Positions 4,393 to 10,620 of a DNA stretch of 26,039 bases are shown piece by piece (the stretch's first letter is position 1; every line of letters starts with the position of its first letter). The translations under genes and the position numbers were made by a program. The stretch covers positions 1 to 26,039 of IMG/VR virus record IMGVR_UViG_2690315742_000005; one strand, written 5' to 3'. The DNA is from a virus (taxonomy: Duplodnaviria; Heunggongvirae; Uroviricota; Caudoviricetes). The notes under the pieces are model-generated. The model did not search any database and was not told the DNA's origin. It saw only the letters and a program-made list of their open reading frames with translations.

Positions 4393-4415
4393 AAAAAAAC
4401 CCGCTCAATGGCGGG
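4393..4415 (-). terminator. rho-independent terminator candidate downstream of Q (tR'-like)
   Basis: Minus-strand hairpin with CCCGC/GCGGG stem (loop ATTGAG) followed by TTTTTTT, located 50 bp after the stop of the Q-like gene. Confidence 0.5.
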
Positions 4416-4467
4416 CTCTTAATGTTGTGTTGCTCAGTTCGCTTTAACGTCCCGAGCCTACCACAAT

Positions 4468-5046
4468 TTAAGCACTTTCTTGCTCACTCTGCAACTTAAA
4501 TCTGTCGCTATTTGTGCCGAATGCGTCACAAACTGGAGCGTACAGGATCGATTCTGCAAGACTTAGCCAAGTGTCAATGCGTCGACGACAGGTGATCAGC
4601 GGCCAGTCAGGATGTTTAGCCTGCAGTTCATTGGCCATCTGCAACTTGCTCTTACGAAGACGATACCGGTCAACAATCACGCTATAGAGCGATCGGTAGT
4701 CATCATTCATCAGTACTGAAGCAATGACACCGTCCACTAACAACCCTTCTTCATCTGAACAGAACGCCAGGCCGCTTTTATTTTTGCTGTTGAGAATTTC
4801 ACGCAGGTACGCTTCAAGTTCAGGCTTGGTGATACCCGCTATCTTCATCCGGCGTAGCGCTTCATTGATAGCTGTCTTGGTGATTTTCCCGGATGCCAGA
4901 AGCTGGTTAAACATGTTTCCACCACTACCACCGCCGATATAAGACCAGCGGCCCCACATGCGCAACTTGCCTTGTATCCAGATACTTTCCAGAGTACGAA
5001 GGCGAACCATTTCACCTGATTTGCCAACTTCAGAAGGATTAATCAT
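4468..5046 (-). CDS. late-gene antitermination protein Q-like (Phage_antitermQ-like)
   Basis: 192-aa ORF; LRMWGRWS... and the SDEEGLLVDGVIASV...YRSLYSVIVDRY segment resemble the LERWGAW / DD..ICGCM...LLVDYYV pattern I recall for Q-like antiterminators; sits immediately upstream of a terminator and the lysis genes. Confidence 0.55.
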   Translation of the reverse strand: MINPSEVGKSGEMVRLRTLESIWIQGKLRMWGRWSYIGGGSGGNMFNQLLASGKITKTAINEALRRMKIAGITKPELEAYLREILNSKNKSGLAFCSDEEGLLVDGVIASVLMNDDYRSLYSVIVDRYRLRKSKLQMANELQAKHPDWPLITCRRRIDTWLSLAESILYAPVCDAFGTNSDRFKLQSEQESA

Positions 5047-6057: not shown

Positions 6058-6867
6058 TCAATGAACGGTATCGAGCAGCTTTAACAGCTCAGGGAATCGG
6101 GATTCGAAGAAATGCGGCTGCGTCTCGCGCGGATTTGCGGGACTGGTGATGTTCTTGCCGAACATGCAGCCTTTCGCCGTCAGCGACCAGAATTTTTTGA
6201 TGTTGTTAATCGCAGTGCGGCTGTATCGTTCGCGCTGCTCGACGATCCCCAGCTTCACCATCTGGTGATATGCCTGATTAGCCGTCAGGCGGATACCATA
6301 CTGCTTCAGCAGTGCACTCAGTGACAGCGTAGGGCGACTTGAGCCATCGGGTGCATCGGCAGGAGCATCAATTGCATAGCGCGGAGCCAGATTCGGTAAG
6401 CCAACAGCCTCCTGGAGTTTCTGACAGGCACCAAGCACAGATGAGTTAGACAGGTTTAATTCCCGACGCATAAAGTCCAGCAGAATCACACCAGCCTGCA
6501 TCTTGTCAGCAGCCTGTCCGGATAATTTTTCCGGTGCGCTGGTTACCATGTCGAAAGTACGGATCACCTTCAGATGGAATGACGGGCTGATCCACATTGC
6601 ATAGGCATACACCAGTTCCTTGCAGACATAAGTTCCCCGTTCATTTCCCCCATGAATCACACTCACCGGGTCAACACCCAAATTCTGGGTGTTGGTCAAT
6701 TCATGAACAAGTTCAACAGTTTGTTGGCTGGAAAGAAACTTTCCTGGTTCCTTGGTTCTGGCATTTGCACCAGATGCTACTGCTGCGCGATGCAGATCGT
6801 TCAGGCTGTAACGCCCATAAGCATCACGACGAACTTCAATACCATCAATAACCATCAGATTATTCAT
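6058..6867 (-). CDS. KilA-N domain protein (antirepressor-like)
   Basis: 269-aa ORF; N-terminus MNNLMVIDGIEVRRDAYGRYSLNDLHRAA...YVCKELVYAYAMWISPSFHLKVI matches the KilA-N fold pattern, with a C-terminal extension. Confidence 0.65.
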   Translation of the reverse strand: MNNLMVIDGIEVRRDAYGRYSLNDLHRAAVASGANARTKEPGKFLSSQQTVELVHELTNTQNLGVDPVSVIHGGNERGTYVCKELVYAYAMWISPSFHLKVIRTFDMVTSAPEKLSGQAADKMQAGVILLDFMRRELNLSNSSVLGACQKLQEAVGLPNLAPRYAIDAPADAPDGSSRPTLSLSALLKQYGIRLTANQAYHQMVKLGIVEQRERYSRTAINNIKKFWSLTAKGCMFGKNITSPANPRETQPHFFESRFPELLKLLDTVH

Positions 6868-6886
6868 ACTTCGTTTCTCCTCTTAA

Positions 6887-7276
6887 TCAGGCGGCTGCAC
6901 CCGCCGGTTTCTCATACTTACTGATAGTGATCTCGACCTTCCCTTTCGGGATAACCGGTCCCCACTCAACCAGCATTCTTTTCACCTGACTGTCGTCCTC
7001 CCACACACCCGCGTGGGTCAGGGCGTCAAACAGCGCCTTGTTATAGTTGTCCAGATCGCGGATCCGGTTATCCGGAGGAAACAACACGATCTCCACTGAA
7101 GCAGGTGCCGACGTTGGTTTCGGCAGACGACGTAACTGCTCAACTATTGCTGCACACGCCGCGCTCTGGAATTTTCGCCCCGCCGCGCTTATCAGGCTCT
7201 TACCTGCAAACGCCCCTTTGTTGGGGTGTCGCCAGTACGTGTTCACGCTGGGCGGGAAAGGCAGGATCAGCTTCAT
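6887..7276 (-). CDS. rusA: Holliday junction resolvase RusA
   Basis: 129-aa ORF starting MKLILPFPPSVNTYW with an acidic DLDNYNKALFDAL segment, characteristic of RusA-family resolvases; typical nin-region location. Confidence 0.85.
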   Translation of the reverse strand: MKLILPFPPSVNTYWRHPNKGAFAGKSLISAAGRKFQSAACAAIVEQLRRLPKPTSAPASVEIVLFPPDNRIRDLDNYNKALFDALTHAGVWEDDSQVKRMLVEWGPVIPKGKVEITISKYEKPAGAAA

Positions 7277-7599
7277 ACTTTCAGGCCTCTCTCATGTAAC
7301 CAGTGGGTTGCACGCAGCCTGGCGTTTTCCTCACCGGCAAGCAGTGAGCGGATAATCCCGACCGCCTCGCTGTCGTCGTCCTTCACCGCGGTATGAAGAG
7401 TGATACCCCGGGCCACGCCACGCTTTATCGTGATGACGCCTTTTTTCTCCAGTGCGCGAAGATGTTCCACCGCTGCATTCACTGAACGGTATCCCAGCAT
7501 GGTTGCCACCTCCTGATTGGTTGGCGGGAAGCCACGTTCTTTCTGGTAAGAAATCAGCATATCCAGCACCTGCTGCTGGCATTGAGTTAACGTCGTCAT
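7273..7599 (-). CDS. LexA N-terminal DNA-binding-domain paralog lacking the S24 peptidase domain
   Basis: 108-aa ORF; residues 3-66 (LTQCQQQVLDML...GFPPTNQEVATMLGYRSVNAAVEHLRALEKKGVITIKRGVARGITL) align closely by eye with the E. coli LexA winged-helix domain (LTARQQEVFDLI...[46 protein letters not shown]). No Ala-Gly cleavage site and no Ser/Lys peptidase domain follow. Confidence 0.75.
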   Translation of the reverse strand: MTTLTQCQQQVLDMLISYQKERGFPPTNQEVATMLGYRSVNAAVEHLRALEKKGVITIKRGVARGITLHTAVKDDDSEAVGIIRSLLAGEENARLRATHWLHERGLKV

Positions 7600-8249
7600 G
7601 CCGCCATCTCCCTGACCAGTTTTTCCGCCTGCTGGCGAACCTGCGCCAGAAACGCCTCACCACATGCCTCAAGTTCATCACGCCCGATGTAGCTGATTGC
7701 CGGTCCCTTCCAGGTCTTGTCGAAAACAGCAATAGCACCAGCGAAGAAAGCGCCTGTCGGCACCTGCTTCTCGTCCTTCGGTATAAACCAGGCAGGCAGT
7801 TCAAAACCAATACGCCCGCGAATAAAAGCAATATGATCTGCATCTTCCGGCCACCACACTTCGCTGGTGGCCGCTTTGATCAGGAAAACATAGCGCCCGC
7901 CCTTATCACGCATGGCACTGGCATGTTTCATGATGTAACGCATGCCGGTGATGTATTGCCCCTCATGCTGACTGGCGCGGCTGTATGGGGGATTACCAAA
8001 GGCAGCACCTTTAAGCTCCGCAAGACGTTCTGACCAGTCATGCGCCAGCGCGTTATCTTCCGCCGTGTAATACGCGGCACATTTGGCGTTATCACCGTCA
8101 GTAAACAGATCCAGAACAAACGGGCCAAACAGGGTGTTAATTCCCCAGAAAATGTTGTCCGGCGTGCGCCACTGATCGCCCACTTCCTTCAGTTCATGGG
8201 CTGGTTTGTTCCGCAGTTCCACCAGCGCCTGGCAATATTTATTACTCAT
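7596..8249 (-). CDS. phage N6-adenine DNA methyltransferase (Dam-type)
   Basis: ORF 7596..8282; NPPY motif (FGNPPYS) typical of N6-adenine methyltransferases. Start placed at the internal ATG at 8249 (MSNKYC), which overlaps the upstream gene stop in TAATG; the upstream GTG/ATG at 8282 is an alternative. Confidence 0.8.
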   Translation of the reverse strand: MSNKYCQALVELRNKPAHELKEVGDQWRTPDNIFWGINTLFGPFVLDLFTDGDNAKCAAYYTAEDNALAHDWSERLAELKGAAFGNPPYSRASQHEGQYITGMRYIMKHASAMRDKGGRYVFLIKAATSEVWWPEDADHIAFIRGRIGFELPAWFIPKDEKQVPTGAFFAGAIAVFDKTWKGPAISYIGRDELEACGEAFLAQVRQQAEKLVREMAA

Positions 8250-8743
8250 TAAGCCCCCACGTAATTCCCTGACAGATACCACTCTTCACCCGATGCAGCG
8301 CGCTTGCTGCTTTTCCGTAAGCACCGCTCACGACGCGCCAGAAAATTGTTTCGTTCTGGCTGGGAGTGGCTTTCACGGAATGCCGCCATCCACACGGTTG
8401 CAGCACGACGGTATAAGCCCCTGGACTCCAGTTCTTCAGCCTGGCGGGTCAGGCACAAAATCACCCGTGGATCGTTAGTGCCGACATAGAAATTGCGCAC
8501 AGGTCTGGTTTCTCGAACTGGTTGTGGTTCCGGTTCCTGCGCTCTCTCAGTCAGGCGCGGGAAATGTCTGCGTGTATCTCCTTCACAACGGTGAGCCACA
8601 CGCCCACTCTGACGTAACTTGCTTGCTGACTGCAGAACGCGCTGCCGTGAGTAACCTGCAAAAGCATCCGCAATGTCTCCGGAAGTACACCCCGGATGGG
8701 CTTCAATGAATTTCTGAACTTCATTCAAAAGACTCATAATCAC
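8249..8743 (-). CDS. PerC-like transcriptional regulator domain protein
   Basis: 164-aa ORF; AEELESRGLYRRAATVWMAAF resembles the PerC-family motif (..GLWRRAA..W..), preceded by a possible winged-helix N-terminal region. Confidence 0.45.
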   Translation of the reverse strand: MIMSLLNEVQKFIEAHPGCTSGDIADAFAGYSRQRVLQSASKLRQSGRVAHRCEGDTRRHFPRLTERAQEPEPQPVRETRPVRNFYVGTNDPRVILCLTRQAEELESRGLYRRAATVWMAAFRESHSQPERNNFLARRERCLRKSSKRAASGEEWYLSGNYVGA

Positions 8744-9558: not shown

Positions 9559-9791
9559 GCTGCACCTCCGAGATGCTTCATGTTTTTTCCGGAGCGAAAG
9601 GCTATAAGCGGCATACTGACGCGGTAATTACGGCCCAGCGGTTCACAAACCACCTTCTGACATTCACGGTCAACCAGGCTAACACGTAGAACATGCCCTG
9701 CAGGCGTGGTGTACCACTGCCCAACTGTAGGAATTGATGTTTTTTTACGCTGAAGCAAACGGCAAATATTGAGGAACAACGGATTAAGCAT
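9555..9791 (-). CDS. hypothetical small protein (early operon)
   Basis: 78-aa ORF translationally coupled (4-bp overlaps) to both flanking genes; no recognisable motif. Confidence 0.4.
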   Translation of the reverse strand: MLNPLFLNICRLLQRKKTSIPTVGQWYTTPAGHVLRVSLVDRECQKVVCEPLGRNYRVSMPLIAFRSGKNMKHLGGAA

Positions 9792-10620
9792 GACGATGCC
9801 CTCCGCTGATATTCAGGAGACGGTGAATATGAAAATTAGCCTTATCCGCCAAACGAATACGTTCAGCCTGCAAGTTAAGAAGCGTTTCTACCAGAACCTG
9901 ATGCGCCTGCGGATCCGAAAGAGTTACCTTGCGCAGAGCACGTAGTGCAGTTGTTACATAACTGAGTTTATGTAAGTCTTCATCATTCAGACGAGTGAGG
10001 GCTGGGACAGTAGCCATGATGGCAGCCTCCTTGATCGGTGAAATACTTCCACCACCGGAAACGCCAATTTCGCTGGTGGTGAACTGAACGGGGTTGGCGT
10101 AACCGGTGATCAAGGAAACCGGCGCATCTTTCGATGCCCCCGCCCAGCCCACCATAACTTTGATGTGAGCAAATGCGGACGATAAAAAAGACGCTGGCGC
10201 GTCATATATCGCCTTGATCAGTTCCAGGACGCCAATCCCGGCACCCGCTTTATAAGGTGCCTGAACAGTGTAACGTCCCGGAATGGCAGAATCAATGTGC
10301 TGGTGGTCCTTCACACTCAACAAAATCACGCCTGAATTTCCACAAAGGACTAAAGCACTCATGCGGGTAGTCTTTGCGAAGATAGATAACGCGCTGTGTT
10401 TCTGGCTCCCAACGAATAACATGGACATAAAGCCCTCTTCCGTCACGAAACCAGCGGTTAAGTTCCTGCACAACTCGCCCCCCACAGTCAGGTAAAGTTC
10501 TCTGTGGTTACTTACAGCCAGGTGATTTGGTAATCTGCATTCATGCCGTAACAACAGGTGTTCAGCGACGCTGACCACCAGCTGTTGCGACAAACGGTTA
10601 TTTGCCGTTAAACTGTTCAT
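9784..10620 (-). CDS. hypothetical protein (early operon, unknown function)
   Basis: 278-aa ORF in operon context between the cII-position gene and the replication gene; Gly-rich stretches (GWAGASKD, GVSGGGS) but no confident family assignment. Confidence 0.5.
   Translation of the reverse strand: MNSLTANNRLSQQLVVSVAEHLLLRHECRLPNHLAVSNHRELYLTVGGELCRNLTAGFVTEEGFMSMLFVGSQKHSALSIFAKTTRMSALVLCGNSGVILLSVKDHQHIDSAIPGRYTVQAPYKAGAGIGVLELIKAIYDAPASFLSSAFAHIKVMVGWAGASKDAPVSLITGYANPVQFTTSEIGVSGGGSISPIKEAAIMATVPALTRLNDEDLHKLSYVTTALRALRKVTLSDPQAHQVLVETLLNLQAERIRLADKANFHIHRLLNISGGHRHA

What the first reader, a model, noticed from the sequence alone, without database searches (positions are those of the whole stretch)
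7273..7599. Phage-encoded LexA DNA-binding-domain-only paralog
The 108-aa product aligns along about 65 residues with the N-terminal winged-helix domain of host LexA but has no cleavage site or S24 peptidase/dimerisation domain. Such a protein could occupy SOS boxes without being inactivated by RecA*, or could titrate or heterodimerise with LexA, coupling prophage biology to or insulating it from the SOS response. It sits in the early-right operon between the methyltransferase and RusA.
Basis: partly seen in the sequence, partly recalled or inferred. Interest (0 to 1): 0.55.

Follow-up and report, generated by a model that had tools for sequence, protein, structure and literature searches.

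The report
Phage LexA DNA-binding-domain paralog beside RusA
A small prophage gene, present in about 40% of complete E. coli genomes, encodes only the DNA-binding half of the SOS repressor LexA plus a short helical tail, is always paired with the RusA Holliday-junction resolvase gene, and has no tested function, so it may be a LexA stand-in that DNA damage cannot switch off.

Summary
Window 7273..7599 (-) encodes a 108-aa protein. Residues 1-69 are a true LexA-type winged helix: Pfam PF01726 E=2.9e-19, about 50% identical to E. coli LexA, model rmsd 1.0 Å. There is no S24 peptidase domain. The Ala88-Gly89 pair that aligns with the LexA cleavage site is not conserved in the family.

New findings:
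1. Residues 75-103 form a conserved two-helix tail, probably for dimerisation.
2. Four of five LexA base-contact residues are kept, but Glu44 and Arg28 are replaced in every family member.
3. The DNA-binding domain is under strong purifying selection (pN/pS 0.04).
4. The gene is locked to rusA by a 4-nt overlap in all 59 full-length E. coli hits sampled and in 11/11 places reached from RusA. In Kluyvera the domain is fused in frame to RusA.
5. A sister clade sits in operons behind near-perfect SOS boxes, once with dinI.
6. This 26-kb window has no SOS box.

The family is already annotated (PHROG 362, SfV orf42, Stx phages), but I found no functional study. The closest characterised analogue is GIL01 gp6.

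Best reading, inferred: a RecA-insensitive, LexA-derived DNA-binding protein co-produced with RusA. Binding to SOS boxes is plausible but unproven.

The parts
7273..7599 (-). CDS of the 108-aa LexA-like protein (PHROG 362; named 'LexA family transcriptional regulator' by NCBI)
   Evidence: ORF. Pfam PF01726 E=2.9e-19. PHROG 362 E=1.1e-59 over the full length. 100% identical copies are annotated in E. coli genomes. Among 67 intact alleles pN/pS is 0.125.
7393..7599 (-). Residues 1-69: LexA-type winged helix-turn-helix (helices at 6-22, 28-35 and 40-52; strands at 56-58 and 66-68)
   Evidence: Ungapped alignment to E. coli LexA residues 2-69. AlphaFold secondary structure. Foldseek rmsd 1.0 Å to 3jso. 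pN/pS 0.041.
7444..7485 (-). Residues 39-52: recognition helix SVNAAVEHLRALEK, compared with LexA [14 protein letters not shown]
   Evidence: Ser39, Asn41, Ala42 and Glu45 are kept; Glu44 is Val and Pro40 is Val. Contact residues are listed in PMC3091678. pN/pS 0.035.
7291..7377 (-). Residues 75-103: conserved two-helix C-terminal tail, proposed to be the dimerisation element
   Evidence: AlphaFold helices at 75-88 and 93-103, pLDDT about 86. Ala97 and Leu101 are invariant across relatives of 40-50% identity; Glu78 and Leu86 are nearly invariant among the closer relatives. No match to LexA or S24. pN/pS 0.26. The tail is replaced by a 12-residue linker in the Kluyvera fusion.
7333..7338 (-). 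Ala88-Gly89, which aligns with the LexA Ala84-Gly85 cleavage bond but is not conserved
   Evidence: Alignment. Variation in the family.
7596..7599 (-). ATGA overlap: methyltransferase stop codon and LexA-like start codon
   Evidence: Read from the sequence.
7273..7276 (-). ATGA overlap: LexA-like stop codon and rusA start codon, implying translational coupling
   Evidence: Read from the sequence. The same overlap occurs in relatives of 42-50% identity.
6887..7276 (-). rusA (129 aa), the invariant downstream partner gene
   Evidence: Pfam PF05866 E=6.6e-15. Adjacent in all 59 full-length hits of a spread sample of E. coli genomes and in 11/11 places reached by starting from RusA. Fused in frame to the LexA domain in Kluyvera.
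7596..8282 (-). Dam-family N6-adenine methyltransferase, the variable upstream neighbour. The ORF as listed starts at a GTG. Judging from the 217-aa annotated homologue and the profile match, which begins at residue 12, the likely start is the ATG at 8249.
   Evidence: Pfam PF05869 E=1.1e-45. PADLOC MTase_II profile matched from residue 12. Annotation in strain HS13-1. In other phages this position holds PerC, a C5 or D12 methyltransferase, MT-A70 or a replication gene.

Best explanation
The gene encodes a LexA-derived, sequence-specific DNA-binding protein that RecA* cannot inactivate. It consists of the LexA winged helix-turn-helix plus a two-helix tail, which probably replaces the lost S24 domain as the dimeriser.

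It has no promoter-like site of its own. It is translated from the phage delayed-early (nin) transcript, coupled by ATGA overlaps to the methyltransferase upstream and to RusA downstream. It is therefore made only once the prophage is induced, when host LexA has already been cleaved.

Its most likely action is to bind CTGT-type (SOS-box-like) palindromes and stand in for LexA, re-imposing repression on SOS-controlled host or co-resident phage promoters while RusA deals with branched DNA.

Shown: the fold, the missing peptidase and cleavage site, the operon position, the RusA linkage and the purifying selection. Inferred: dimerisation, the DNA target and the repressive effect.
For: - LexA-specific domain: about 50% identity to E. 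coli LexA and rmsd 1.0 Å.
- Contact residues: Ser39, Asn41, Ala42 and Glu45 are kept here. Across the 25 family members tabulated, Ser39 is invariant, Asn41 is kept in 24, and position 45 is Glu or Asp in 20.
- Selection: pN/pS is 0.035 on the recognition helix and 0.041 on the domain across 67 intact alleles.
- No S24 domain and no conserved Ala-Gly.
- A conserved amphipathic two-helix tail. In the Kluyvera fusion the tail is lost where dimeric RusA is attached, which fits a dimerising role.
- No sigma-70-like site upstream, and overlapping stop/start codons on both sides.
- SOS link in relatives: four clade-II lineages carry the gene behind a terminator plus a promoter overlapped by an SOS box of 20.9-27.0 bits, once with dinI and once with a RecA_C-like gene.
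- Among 80 close E. coli-type phage loci, 49 carry SOS boxes. In six of them the box lies directly after rusA, in front of the KilA-N gene.
Against: - Glu44 and Arg28 of LexA are replaced in all 25 family members.
- Several lineages change Glu45 (to Gly, Ala, Leu or Ile), Asn41 (to Tyr) or Ala42, although the enterobacterial SOS box does not vary. SOS-box binding therefore cannot be a constraint on the whole family.
- In clade II the promoter boxes stay canonical while the recognition helices diverge, so those boxes are for host LexA.
- The 26-kb window has no SOS box: the best PWM score is 9.0 bits, against 12.7 for the weakest training site and a mean shuffle maximum of 11.6. CTGT-N8-ACAG with at most one mismatch occurs 13 times against 9.1 expected.
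- Dimer geometry and half-site spacing are unknown.
- No binding or expression data exist. I found no functional paper.
Confidence: 0.38

Rival explanations
1. RusA partner. The protein is an accessory DNA-binding or regulatory subunit of the phage RusA Holliday-junction resolvase. It would act either as a physical complex, of which the Kluyvera protein is the fused form with the RusA dimer holding two LexA-type domains, or as a dedicated controller of RusA activity or expression. Any effect on SOS genes would be incidental.
For: - rusA overlaps the gene in all 59 full-length hits of a spread sample of 2242 E. coli records.
- The two alleles occur in nearly equal numbers: 2855 and 2971 places.
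- Starting from RusA in Cronobacter, E. coli and Atlantibacter, 11/11 places have a PF01726 gene directly upstream with a 4-nt overlap, while the genes on either side of the pair vary.
- The adjacency survives at 41-50% protein identity.
- An in-frame LexA_DNA_bind::RusA fusion is a populated, diverged lineage: at least 24 clusters at 90% identity, 73-97% identical to one another, from several Kluyvera species, a Klebsiella isolate and metagenomes.
- Precedent for the layout: λ NinH, a mimic of the host protein Fis, lies immediately next to the resolvase gene rap in ninR (PMC7166090).
Against: - Three lineages keep the LexA-like gene without RusA: L014, L016 and L090.
- RusA homologues resolve junctions on their own (established knowledge: Mahdi 1996 and Chan 1997, cited).
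- There is no co-evolution signal. The tail-RusA identity correlation is r=0.37, below tail-DUF968 at 0.65. RusA is far more conserved (mean pairwise identity 78%) than the tail (43%).
- Strong selection on the recognition helix suggests sequence-specific binding rather than generic DNA binding.
- The fusion probably arose in a single event.
Confidence: 0.27
2. Phage-specific transcription factor. Like GIL01 gp6, the protein has diverged from LexA to recognise its own operator and activates or represses a phage promoter, for example for late genes, a moron or an antirepressor. Different 'types' of the protein would match different sites.
For: - gp6 is a truncated LexA homologue that binds GaCACAnnTGTGaC at -43.5 and activates the late promoter P3 (PMC6182141).
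- PHROG 362 is labelled 'transcriptional repressor'.
- The family splits into discrete types. They are strongly conserved within a type (pN/pS 0.04) but only 42-57% identical between types, while the neighbouring RusA is about 78% identical. This is the pattern seen in specificity-determining regulators.
- Glu44 and Arg28 are lost in every member.
Against: - No palindrome that co-varies with the protein type was found within 400 nt of the LexA-like/rusA unit.
- The gene is combined with different Q, immunity and late modules, so no linked target promoter is evident.
- This phage already has a Q-type antiterminator for late genes.
- Most types keep the LexA reading residues Ser39, Asn41, Ala42 and Glu/Asp45.
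Confidence: 0.22
3. Decoy or remnant. The protein titrates RecA* or LexA by protein contacts, or it is a decaying fragment of a captured lexA gene with no function.
For: The homology to LexA is the only point in favour. A few alleles are frameshifted or truncated.
Against: - 67 of 68 distinct ungapped full-length alleles are intact, with pN/pS 0.125.
- Length and tail are conserved down to 40% identity.
- RecA* engages the LexA C-terminal domain, which is absent here, and LexA also dimerises through that domain (established knowledge; see the 8trg entry).
Confidence: 0.05

Closest known systems
E. coli LexA (SOS repressor; S24 peptidase family; TIGR00498)
   Same: The N-terminal winged helix-turn-helix is homologous, about 50% identical, with rmsd 1.0 Å. 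Ser39, Asn41, Ala42 and Glu45 of the recognition helix, and Arg64-Gly65-Ile66 of the wing, are kept.
   Different: There is no S24 catalytic and dimerisation domain, no Ser119/Lys156 and no conserved Ala-Gly bond. Glu44 is Val, Arg28 is Asn and Pro40 is Val. A two-helix tail takes the place of the C-terminal domain. The gene is phage-borne in the nin operon and is not autoregulated from an SOS promoter in this window.
GIL01 gp6 (Bacillus thuringiensis tectivirus), the only phage-encoded truncated LexA homologue for which I found a functional study
   Same: It is a stand-alone LexA DNA-binding domain encoded by a temperate phage, expressed early after induction, and acts in a cell whose LexA has been cleaved (PMC6182141).
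   Different: gp6 consists essentially of the domain alone, activates the late promoter P3 at a non-LexA palindrome, and belongs to a linear tectivirus of Gram-positive bacteria. The protein here has an extra conserved tail, sits in a lambdoid nin region that uses Q antitermination, and is locked to RusA. Neither its target nor the sign of its effect is known.
Phage λ NinH (Fis mimic)
   Same: It is a small phage copy of the DNA-binding part of a host global DNA-binding protein. It is encoded in the ninR region directly next to a Holliday-junction resolvase gene (rap/ninG) and works as a homodimer (PMC7166090).
   Different: The fold is unrelated (Fis-type helix-turn-helix against LexA winged helix). 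ninH lies downstream of the resolvase gene rather than upstream. No fusion to the resolvase is reported.
PHROG 362 and other stand-alone LexA_DNA_bind phage proteins
   Same: The protein matches the full length of PHROG 362 (E=1.1e-59). Stand-alone LexA-domain proteins of 65-150 aa are common in phage structure and sequence libraries.
   Different: These are annotation classes only. The label 'transcriptional repressor' is inferred and has not been tested.

Membership tests
LexA repressor (TIGR00498 equivalog; S24 peptidase) | N-terminal LexA-type winged helix-turn-helix (PF01726) | tested here: met
   PF01726 E=2.9e-19 with the full profile matched; rmsd 1.0 Å to 3jso.
LexA repressor (TIGR00498 equivalog; S24 peptidase) | C-terminal S24 peptidase and dimerisation domain with the Ser119/Lys156 dyad | tested here: not met
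   The protein ends at residue 108. There is no PF00717 match. TIGR00498 scores 70.8 bits, below its cut-off of 110.95, covering profile positions 1-91 only.
LexA repressor (TIGR00498 equivalog; S24 peptidase) | Conserved Ala-Gly autocleavage site | tested here: not met
   Ala88-Gly89 aligns with Ala84-Gly85, but relatives have AK, AN, VG, TR or ER there, and Ala88 varies within E. coli alleles.
LexA repressor (TIGR00498 equivalog; S24 peptidase) | Base-contact residues Ser39, Asn41, Ala42, Glu44 and Glu45 | tested here: inconclusive
   Four of five are kept in the window protein. Glu44 is never Glu in the 25 family members, and Glu45, Asn41 and Ala42 vary in some lineages.
LexA repressor (TIGR00498 equivalog; S24 peptidase) | Binds CTGT-N8-ACAG SOS boxes and is inactivated by RecA* | not testable with these tools
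   This needs EMSA, ChIP and cleavage assays. The only indirect data are that the window has no SOS box while relatives do.
PHROG 362 / stand-alone phage LexA_DNA_bind proteins | Full-length match to the family profile and a phage context | tested here: met
   E=1.1e-59, residues 1-108 against profile positions 1-106. The gene lies in a lambdoid nin region and is present in SfV, SfII, cdtI, mEp460 and Stx2 phages.
GIL01 gp6-type late-gene activator | Truncated LexA homologue encoded by a temperate phage | tested here: met
GIL01 gp6-type late-gene activator | Own palindromic site overlapping the -35 element of a late promoter, with activation of that promoter | tested here: inconclusive
   No candidate site was found near the unit or in the gap downstream of Q. 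Activation cannot be tested here. Late genes in this phage have a Q-type antiterminator.
LexA-like/RusA two-gene unit (defined here) | PF01726-only gene directly upstream of rusA with a stop/start overlap | tested here: met
   ATGA overlap at 7273..7276. Found in all 59 full-length E. coli hits sampled and in 11/11 places starting from RusA.
LexA-like/RusA two-gene unit (defined here) | Physical or functional interaction of the two proteins | not testable with these tools
   Only indirect evidence exists: the fusion lineage on one side, and the absence of a co-evolution signal on the other.

The most novel reading that the evidence does not exclude
The LexA-like protein and RusA work as one machine. 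In the Kluyvera phages they are a single polypeptide. Elsewhere they would form a two-subunit complex in which the RusA dimer, or the two-helix tail, replaces the lost S24 dimeriser of LexA. The result would be a Holliday-junction resolvase carrying two LexA-type sequence-reading heads. Seen the other way, it would be an uncleavable SOS-box binder built on a resolvase. Either way, recombination-intermediate processing would be tied to LexA-type operators in about 40% of complete E. coli genomes and in Stx phages.
Probability: 0.22. Interest if true: 0.75.

Novelty: new variant of a known kind. Interest (0 to 1): 0.5.

Why it matters
The gene is in 2233 of 5426 complete E. coli genomes and in Stx2a, Stx2c and Stx2k phages, the Shigella serotype-converting phages SfII, SfIV and SfV, and phage cdtI. 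I found no experimental study of it.

If it binds SOS boxes, induced prophages would carry a LexA substitute that RecA* cannot remove. That could shut SOS functions off again during lytic growth, including mutagenesis, LexA-controlled toxins and LexA-controlled antirepressors of rival prophages. This bears on Shiga-toxin induction, antibiotic-triggered SOS responses and competition between prophages.

If instead it works with RusA, it would be the first DNA-binding partner reported for this otherwise stand-alone resolvase. It would also explain why a copy of a host regulator's DNA-binding domain sits beside a resolvase gene in nin regions, as λ NinH does.

Both ideas can be tested directly with simple biochemistry and a phage deletion mutant.

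Tried and rejected
- SOS boxes in the window. The regex CTGT-N8-ACAG with at most one mismatch gave 13 hits against 9.1 expected. The single perfect hit, 10502..10517, lies inside an Ash-family ORF. A PWM built from 20 E. coli SOS boxes that I recalled from memory gave a best score of 9.0 bits, below every training site and below the shuffle maxima. I conclude there is no SOS box here.
- A retained cleavage site. Ala88-Gly89 aligns with the LexA site but is not conserved. Rejected.
- An own promoter that would allow expression in the lysogen. No sigma-70-like site lies upstream on the minus strand.
- Tail-RusA co-evolution. The mirror-tree correlation is r=0.37, lower than with DUF968. This gives no support.
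- An operator linked to the unit. I scanned 14 lineages for palindromes within 400 nt of the unit. None co-varies with the protein type. Those inside the gene follow from the coding of the conserved QQ.VL and wing motifs.
- Other fusions. The E. coli LexA-like::RusA protein P0331 lacks the RusA N-terminus, and the LexA-domain::DUF968 protein P0158 is a single sequence. Both are singletons and probably deletions, so I did not count them.
- Defence-system membership. PADLOC gave only a marginal hit (E=3.6e-4 to a CARF model).
- Methods that failed. The LexA-DNA structure paper PMC2921665 is not held, so the contact residues come from PMC3091678.
- Literature. Nine searches found no functional work on this family. 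It is only catalogued as pham 237 in Stx phages (PMC8136144).
Full report

Yes. The minus strand of 7273..7599 carries an ATG-to-TGA ORF of 108 aa. Its start overlaps the stop codon of the upstream methyltransferase gene (ATGA at 7596..7599). Its stop overlaps the start codon of rusA (ATGA at 7273..7276).

- Residues 1-65 match the complete Pfam LexA_DNA_bind profile (E=2.9e-19).
- Residues 2-69 align without gaps to E. coli LexA residues 2-69 (E about 1e-15).
- A single-sequence AlphaFold model was poor (pLDDT 54.5). A model built on 18 homologues is good (pLDDT 83.4).
- That model superposes on the DNA-bound LexA domain of 3jso at 1.0 Å over 68 residues, with 50% identity.
- There is no Peptidase_S24 match. 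The NCBIfam lexA equivalog scores 70.8 bits against a cut-off of 110.95.
Beyond them lie PerC-like and replication genes upstream, and KilA-N, DUF968 and a Q-type antiterminator downstream. This is a lambdoid nin region.

**2.

- The HMMER alignment to LexA continues to residue 90 and puts Ala88-Gly89 on the LexA cleavage bond. The pair is not conserved: relatives have AK, AN, VG, TR or ER, and Ala88 varies even within E. coli alleles. It is not a cleavage site.
- Residues 75-103 form two helices. They are conserved in relatives of only 40-50% identity: Ala97 and Leu101 are invariant, and Glu78 and Leu86 are nearly invariant among the closer relatives. They resemble nothing in LexA. I infer that this tail is a minimal dimerisation element. 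This is an inference, not a result.
- Of the five LexA base-contact residues (Ser39, Asn41, Ala42, Glu44, Glu45; PMC3091678), four are kept here. Glu44 is Val. It is never Glu in the 25 family members I tabulated, and Arg28 is never Arg. Ser39, Lys53 and Arg64-Gly65-Ile66 are invariant or nearly so (Gly65 is Ala in one member).
- The S-x-N-A-A-x-E-H-L pattern is that of beta- and gammaproteobacterial LexA. This statement rests on my own knowledge.

**3. How common and how constrained is it?**

- The gene occurs at more than 90% nucleotide identity in 2233 of 5426 complete E. coli genomes, with up to four copies per genome.
- It is present in phages SfV (orf42, annotated 'unknown'), SfII, SfIV, cdtI, mEp460, Ayreon and the Stx2a, Stx2c and Stx2k phages.
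- Among 68 distinct ungapped full-length alleles from close phage loci, 67 are intact.
- pN/pS is 0.125 overall, 0.041 for the DNA-binding domain, 0.035 for the recognition helix and 0.26 for the tail. The protein is functional, and its DNA-reading surface is the most constrained part.
- Between lineages the protein falls into discrete types that are only 42-57% identical. The adjacent RusA stays about 78% identical and DUF968 about 66%.

**4. The RusA linkage**

- In a spread sample across 2242 E. coli records, rusA overlaps the gene in all 59 full-length hits. The upstream neighbour is a methyltransferase in about 49 and PerC in about 10.
- Every divergent lineage I fetched has RusA next to the gene. 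This covers Citrobacter, Kosakonia, Enterobacter, Silvania, Cronobacter and Atlantibacter, plus several assemblies and metagenome contigs whose organism the tools did not name.
- The exceptions are three lineages in which DUF968 follows directly or after one small ORF: L014, L016 and L090.
- Starting instead from RusA proteins chosen without regard to the LexA-like gene, 11 of 11 places have a PF01726 gene directly upstream with a 4-nt overlap. The outer neighbours differ: Dam genes of three sizes or MT-A70 upstream, and KilA-N or Rha/ANT downstream.
- In Kluyvera cryocrescens and K. ascorbata, a further unnamed Kluyvera isolate (STS39-E), a Klebsiella isolate and metagenomes, the LexA domain is fused in frame to full-length RusA through a 12-residue linker that replaces the tail. 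There are at least 24 clusters at 90% identity, 202-212 aa long and 73-97% identical to one another. Both Pfam domains score above their cut-offs.
- This is a Rosetta-stone hint of joint function. It also fits the simpler idea that dimeric RusA can replace the tail as the dimeriser.
- A mirror-tree test gave no support for tail-RusA docking (r=0.37, against 0.65 for tail-DUF968).

**5. The SOS link**

- This window has no SOS box.
- A sister clade of longer proteins (118-165 aa: P0138, P0242, P0168, P0219) is always preceded by a terminator and a sigma-70-like promoter overlapped by a near-perfect SOS box (20.9-27.0 bits).
- The operon behind that promoter is: [dinI, or a RecA_C-like gene, or nothing] - a conserved 75-82-aa ORF - the LexA-like gene - [a 66-67-aa ORF] - RusA and/or DUF968 - Q.
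- In those phages the gene therefore belongs to the host LexA regulon and travels with a known SOS modulator.
- Their recognition helices differ (SSPNAAAEHL, RSQNTVFIHL, SSSNAVLLHL, SSPYAAYEHL) while the boxes stay canonical. The boxes are therefore for host LexA, and at least some of these proteins probably read something else.
- In 80 close E. coli-type phage loci (1.4 Mb), 49 carry SOS boxes at three recurrent places: over the start codon of a methyltransferase gene downstream of Q (32 loci), inside the linker-coding part of a cI-like gene (22 loci), and in the rusA/KilA-N gap (6 loci). These are potential phage targets for a LexA stand-in. I have no control set of phages that lack the gene.

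**6. Most likely mechanism**

I commit, at modest confidence (0.38), to a RecA*-insensitive, dimeric, LexA-derived DNA-binding protein. It would be made from the delayed-early transcript together with RusA, and would bind CTGT-type palindromes in place of the cleaved host LexA.

- Shown: the fold, the loss of the peptidase and cleavage site, the operon position, the coupling to RusA and the purifying selection.
- Inferred: dimerisation through the tail, the DNA target and repression.

The main rivals are these.
- A functional or physical partnership with RusA (0.27).
- A gp6-like phage-specific regulator with its own operator (0.22). The type structure and the universal loss of Glu44 and Arg28 favour it. 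The absence of any co-varying palindrome within 400 nt of the unit counts against it.
- A decoy or remnant (0.05). Selection and the missing C-terminal domain contradict it.

**7. Comparison with what is known, and novelty**

- The protein is not a LexA. Two defining features, the S24 domain and the cleavage site, were tested and are not met.
- It is a full-length member of PHROG 362, and stand-alone LexA-domain proteins are common in phages.
- The only relative I found with experimental data is GIL01 gp6, an activator of a tectivirus late promoter (PMC6182141).
- λ NinH, a Fis mimic encoded next to the resolvase gene rap in ninR (PMC7166090), is a close parallel in logic but not in fold.
- Nine literature searches found no functional work on the enterobacterial family. 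It is only listed as pham 237 in a survey of Stx phages (PMC8136144).
- I rate it a new variant of a known kind. Its existence is already annotated. What is new is the conserved tail, the obligatory pairing and occasional fusion with RusA, and the SOS-promoter clade.
- Interest is 0.5. The gene is widespread, constrained and easy to test. However, the headline idea of an SOS-box mimic has mixed sequence evidence, and this prophage offers no target site for it.

Noticed in passing
L012 4001-4627; L013 4001-4639 (Kluyvera); proteins P0253-P0276: In-frame LexA_DNA_bind::RusA fusion proteins of 202-212 aa form a populated, diverged lineage. A 12-residue linker replaces the two-helix tail.
   Followed up: yes
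L007 5560-5579; L089 4561-4580; L090 513-532; L091 3242-3277: In a sister clade, near-perfect SOS boxes overlap sigma-70-like promoters placed just after terminator hairpins. These promoters drive operons of the form [dinI or RecA_C-like] - 75-82-aa ORF - LexA-like - 66-67-aa ORF - RusA/DUF968 - Q. Transcription from these LexA-controlled promoters may run on into the Q antiterminator gene.
   Followed up: partly
L001 17760-17779; L002 836-855; L009 1103-1122; L011 996-1015; 22 of 80 viral loci (e.g. L096 4901): A canonical SOS box (22-27 bits) lies inside the coding sequence of a 230-aa cI-like (HTH + S24) repressor gene, in the part that encodes the inter-domain linker. It is conserved across diverged alleles. 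Its role is unknown.
   Followed up: partly
L094 10157-10176 and 31 other viral loci; also L013 7929, L014 6926, L016 8113, L018 6794, L089 7739: An SOS box overlaps the start codon and first codons (MKNTVKI...) of an N6_N4-type methyltransferase gene located downstream of Q. A conserved hairpin, GCTTTAGCGCAAAAGC, precedes it.
   Followed up: partly
L099 9067-9086 (also L106, L135, L136, L152, L164): In six close relatives the gap between rusA and the KilA-N gene holds an SOS box of 21.6 bits behind a promoter-like sequence. There the KilA-N protein, a possible antirepressor, looks LexA-controlled. The window has only a 19-bp gap (6868..6886) and no box.
   Followed up: partly
window 6672-6694 (inside the KilA-N gene 6058..6867); equivalent positions in L002, L017, L022, L174, L176, L011, L181: Long perfect palindromes lie about 150-200 nt into the gene that follows rusA, whether it is KilA-N or Rha/ANT. 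Arms are 6-12 bp; the window has CAACACCCAGAATTTGGGTGTTG. The sequence differs between lineages and follows the allele of the downstream gene, not the LexA-like type. It could be an RNA hairpin or a protein-binding site.
   Followed up: partly
loci: The slot upstream of the LexA-like gene is often filled by DNA methyltransferases of unrelated families: Dam PF05869 in three sizes, C5 PF00145 with D12, and MT-A70. This suggests a hotspot for methyltransferase genes or a functional association.
   Followed up: no
proteins P0132, P0149, P0186, P0211, P0212, P0155, P0208: [quoted passage not shown]
   Followed up: no
window 4395-4420 (-): A strong terminator-like hairpin followed by a T-run lies just downstream of the Q-type gene (4468..5046). 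It is probably the tR'-type terminator that Q reads through.
   Followed up: no
window 10502-10517: The only perfect CTGT-N8-ACAG in the window lies inside an Ash-family ORF (9784..10620) and scores only 8.1 bits on the SOS PWM. It is most likely a chance match.
   Followed up: yes
L026 4001-4474 (Citrobacter sp. OP27): A 157-aa variant has the LexA domain followed by an unrelated C-terminal region of about 87 aa with no Pfam match, in place of the two-helix tail. It is still followed closely by RusA.
   Followed up: partly
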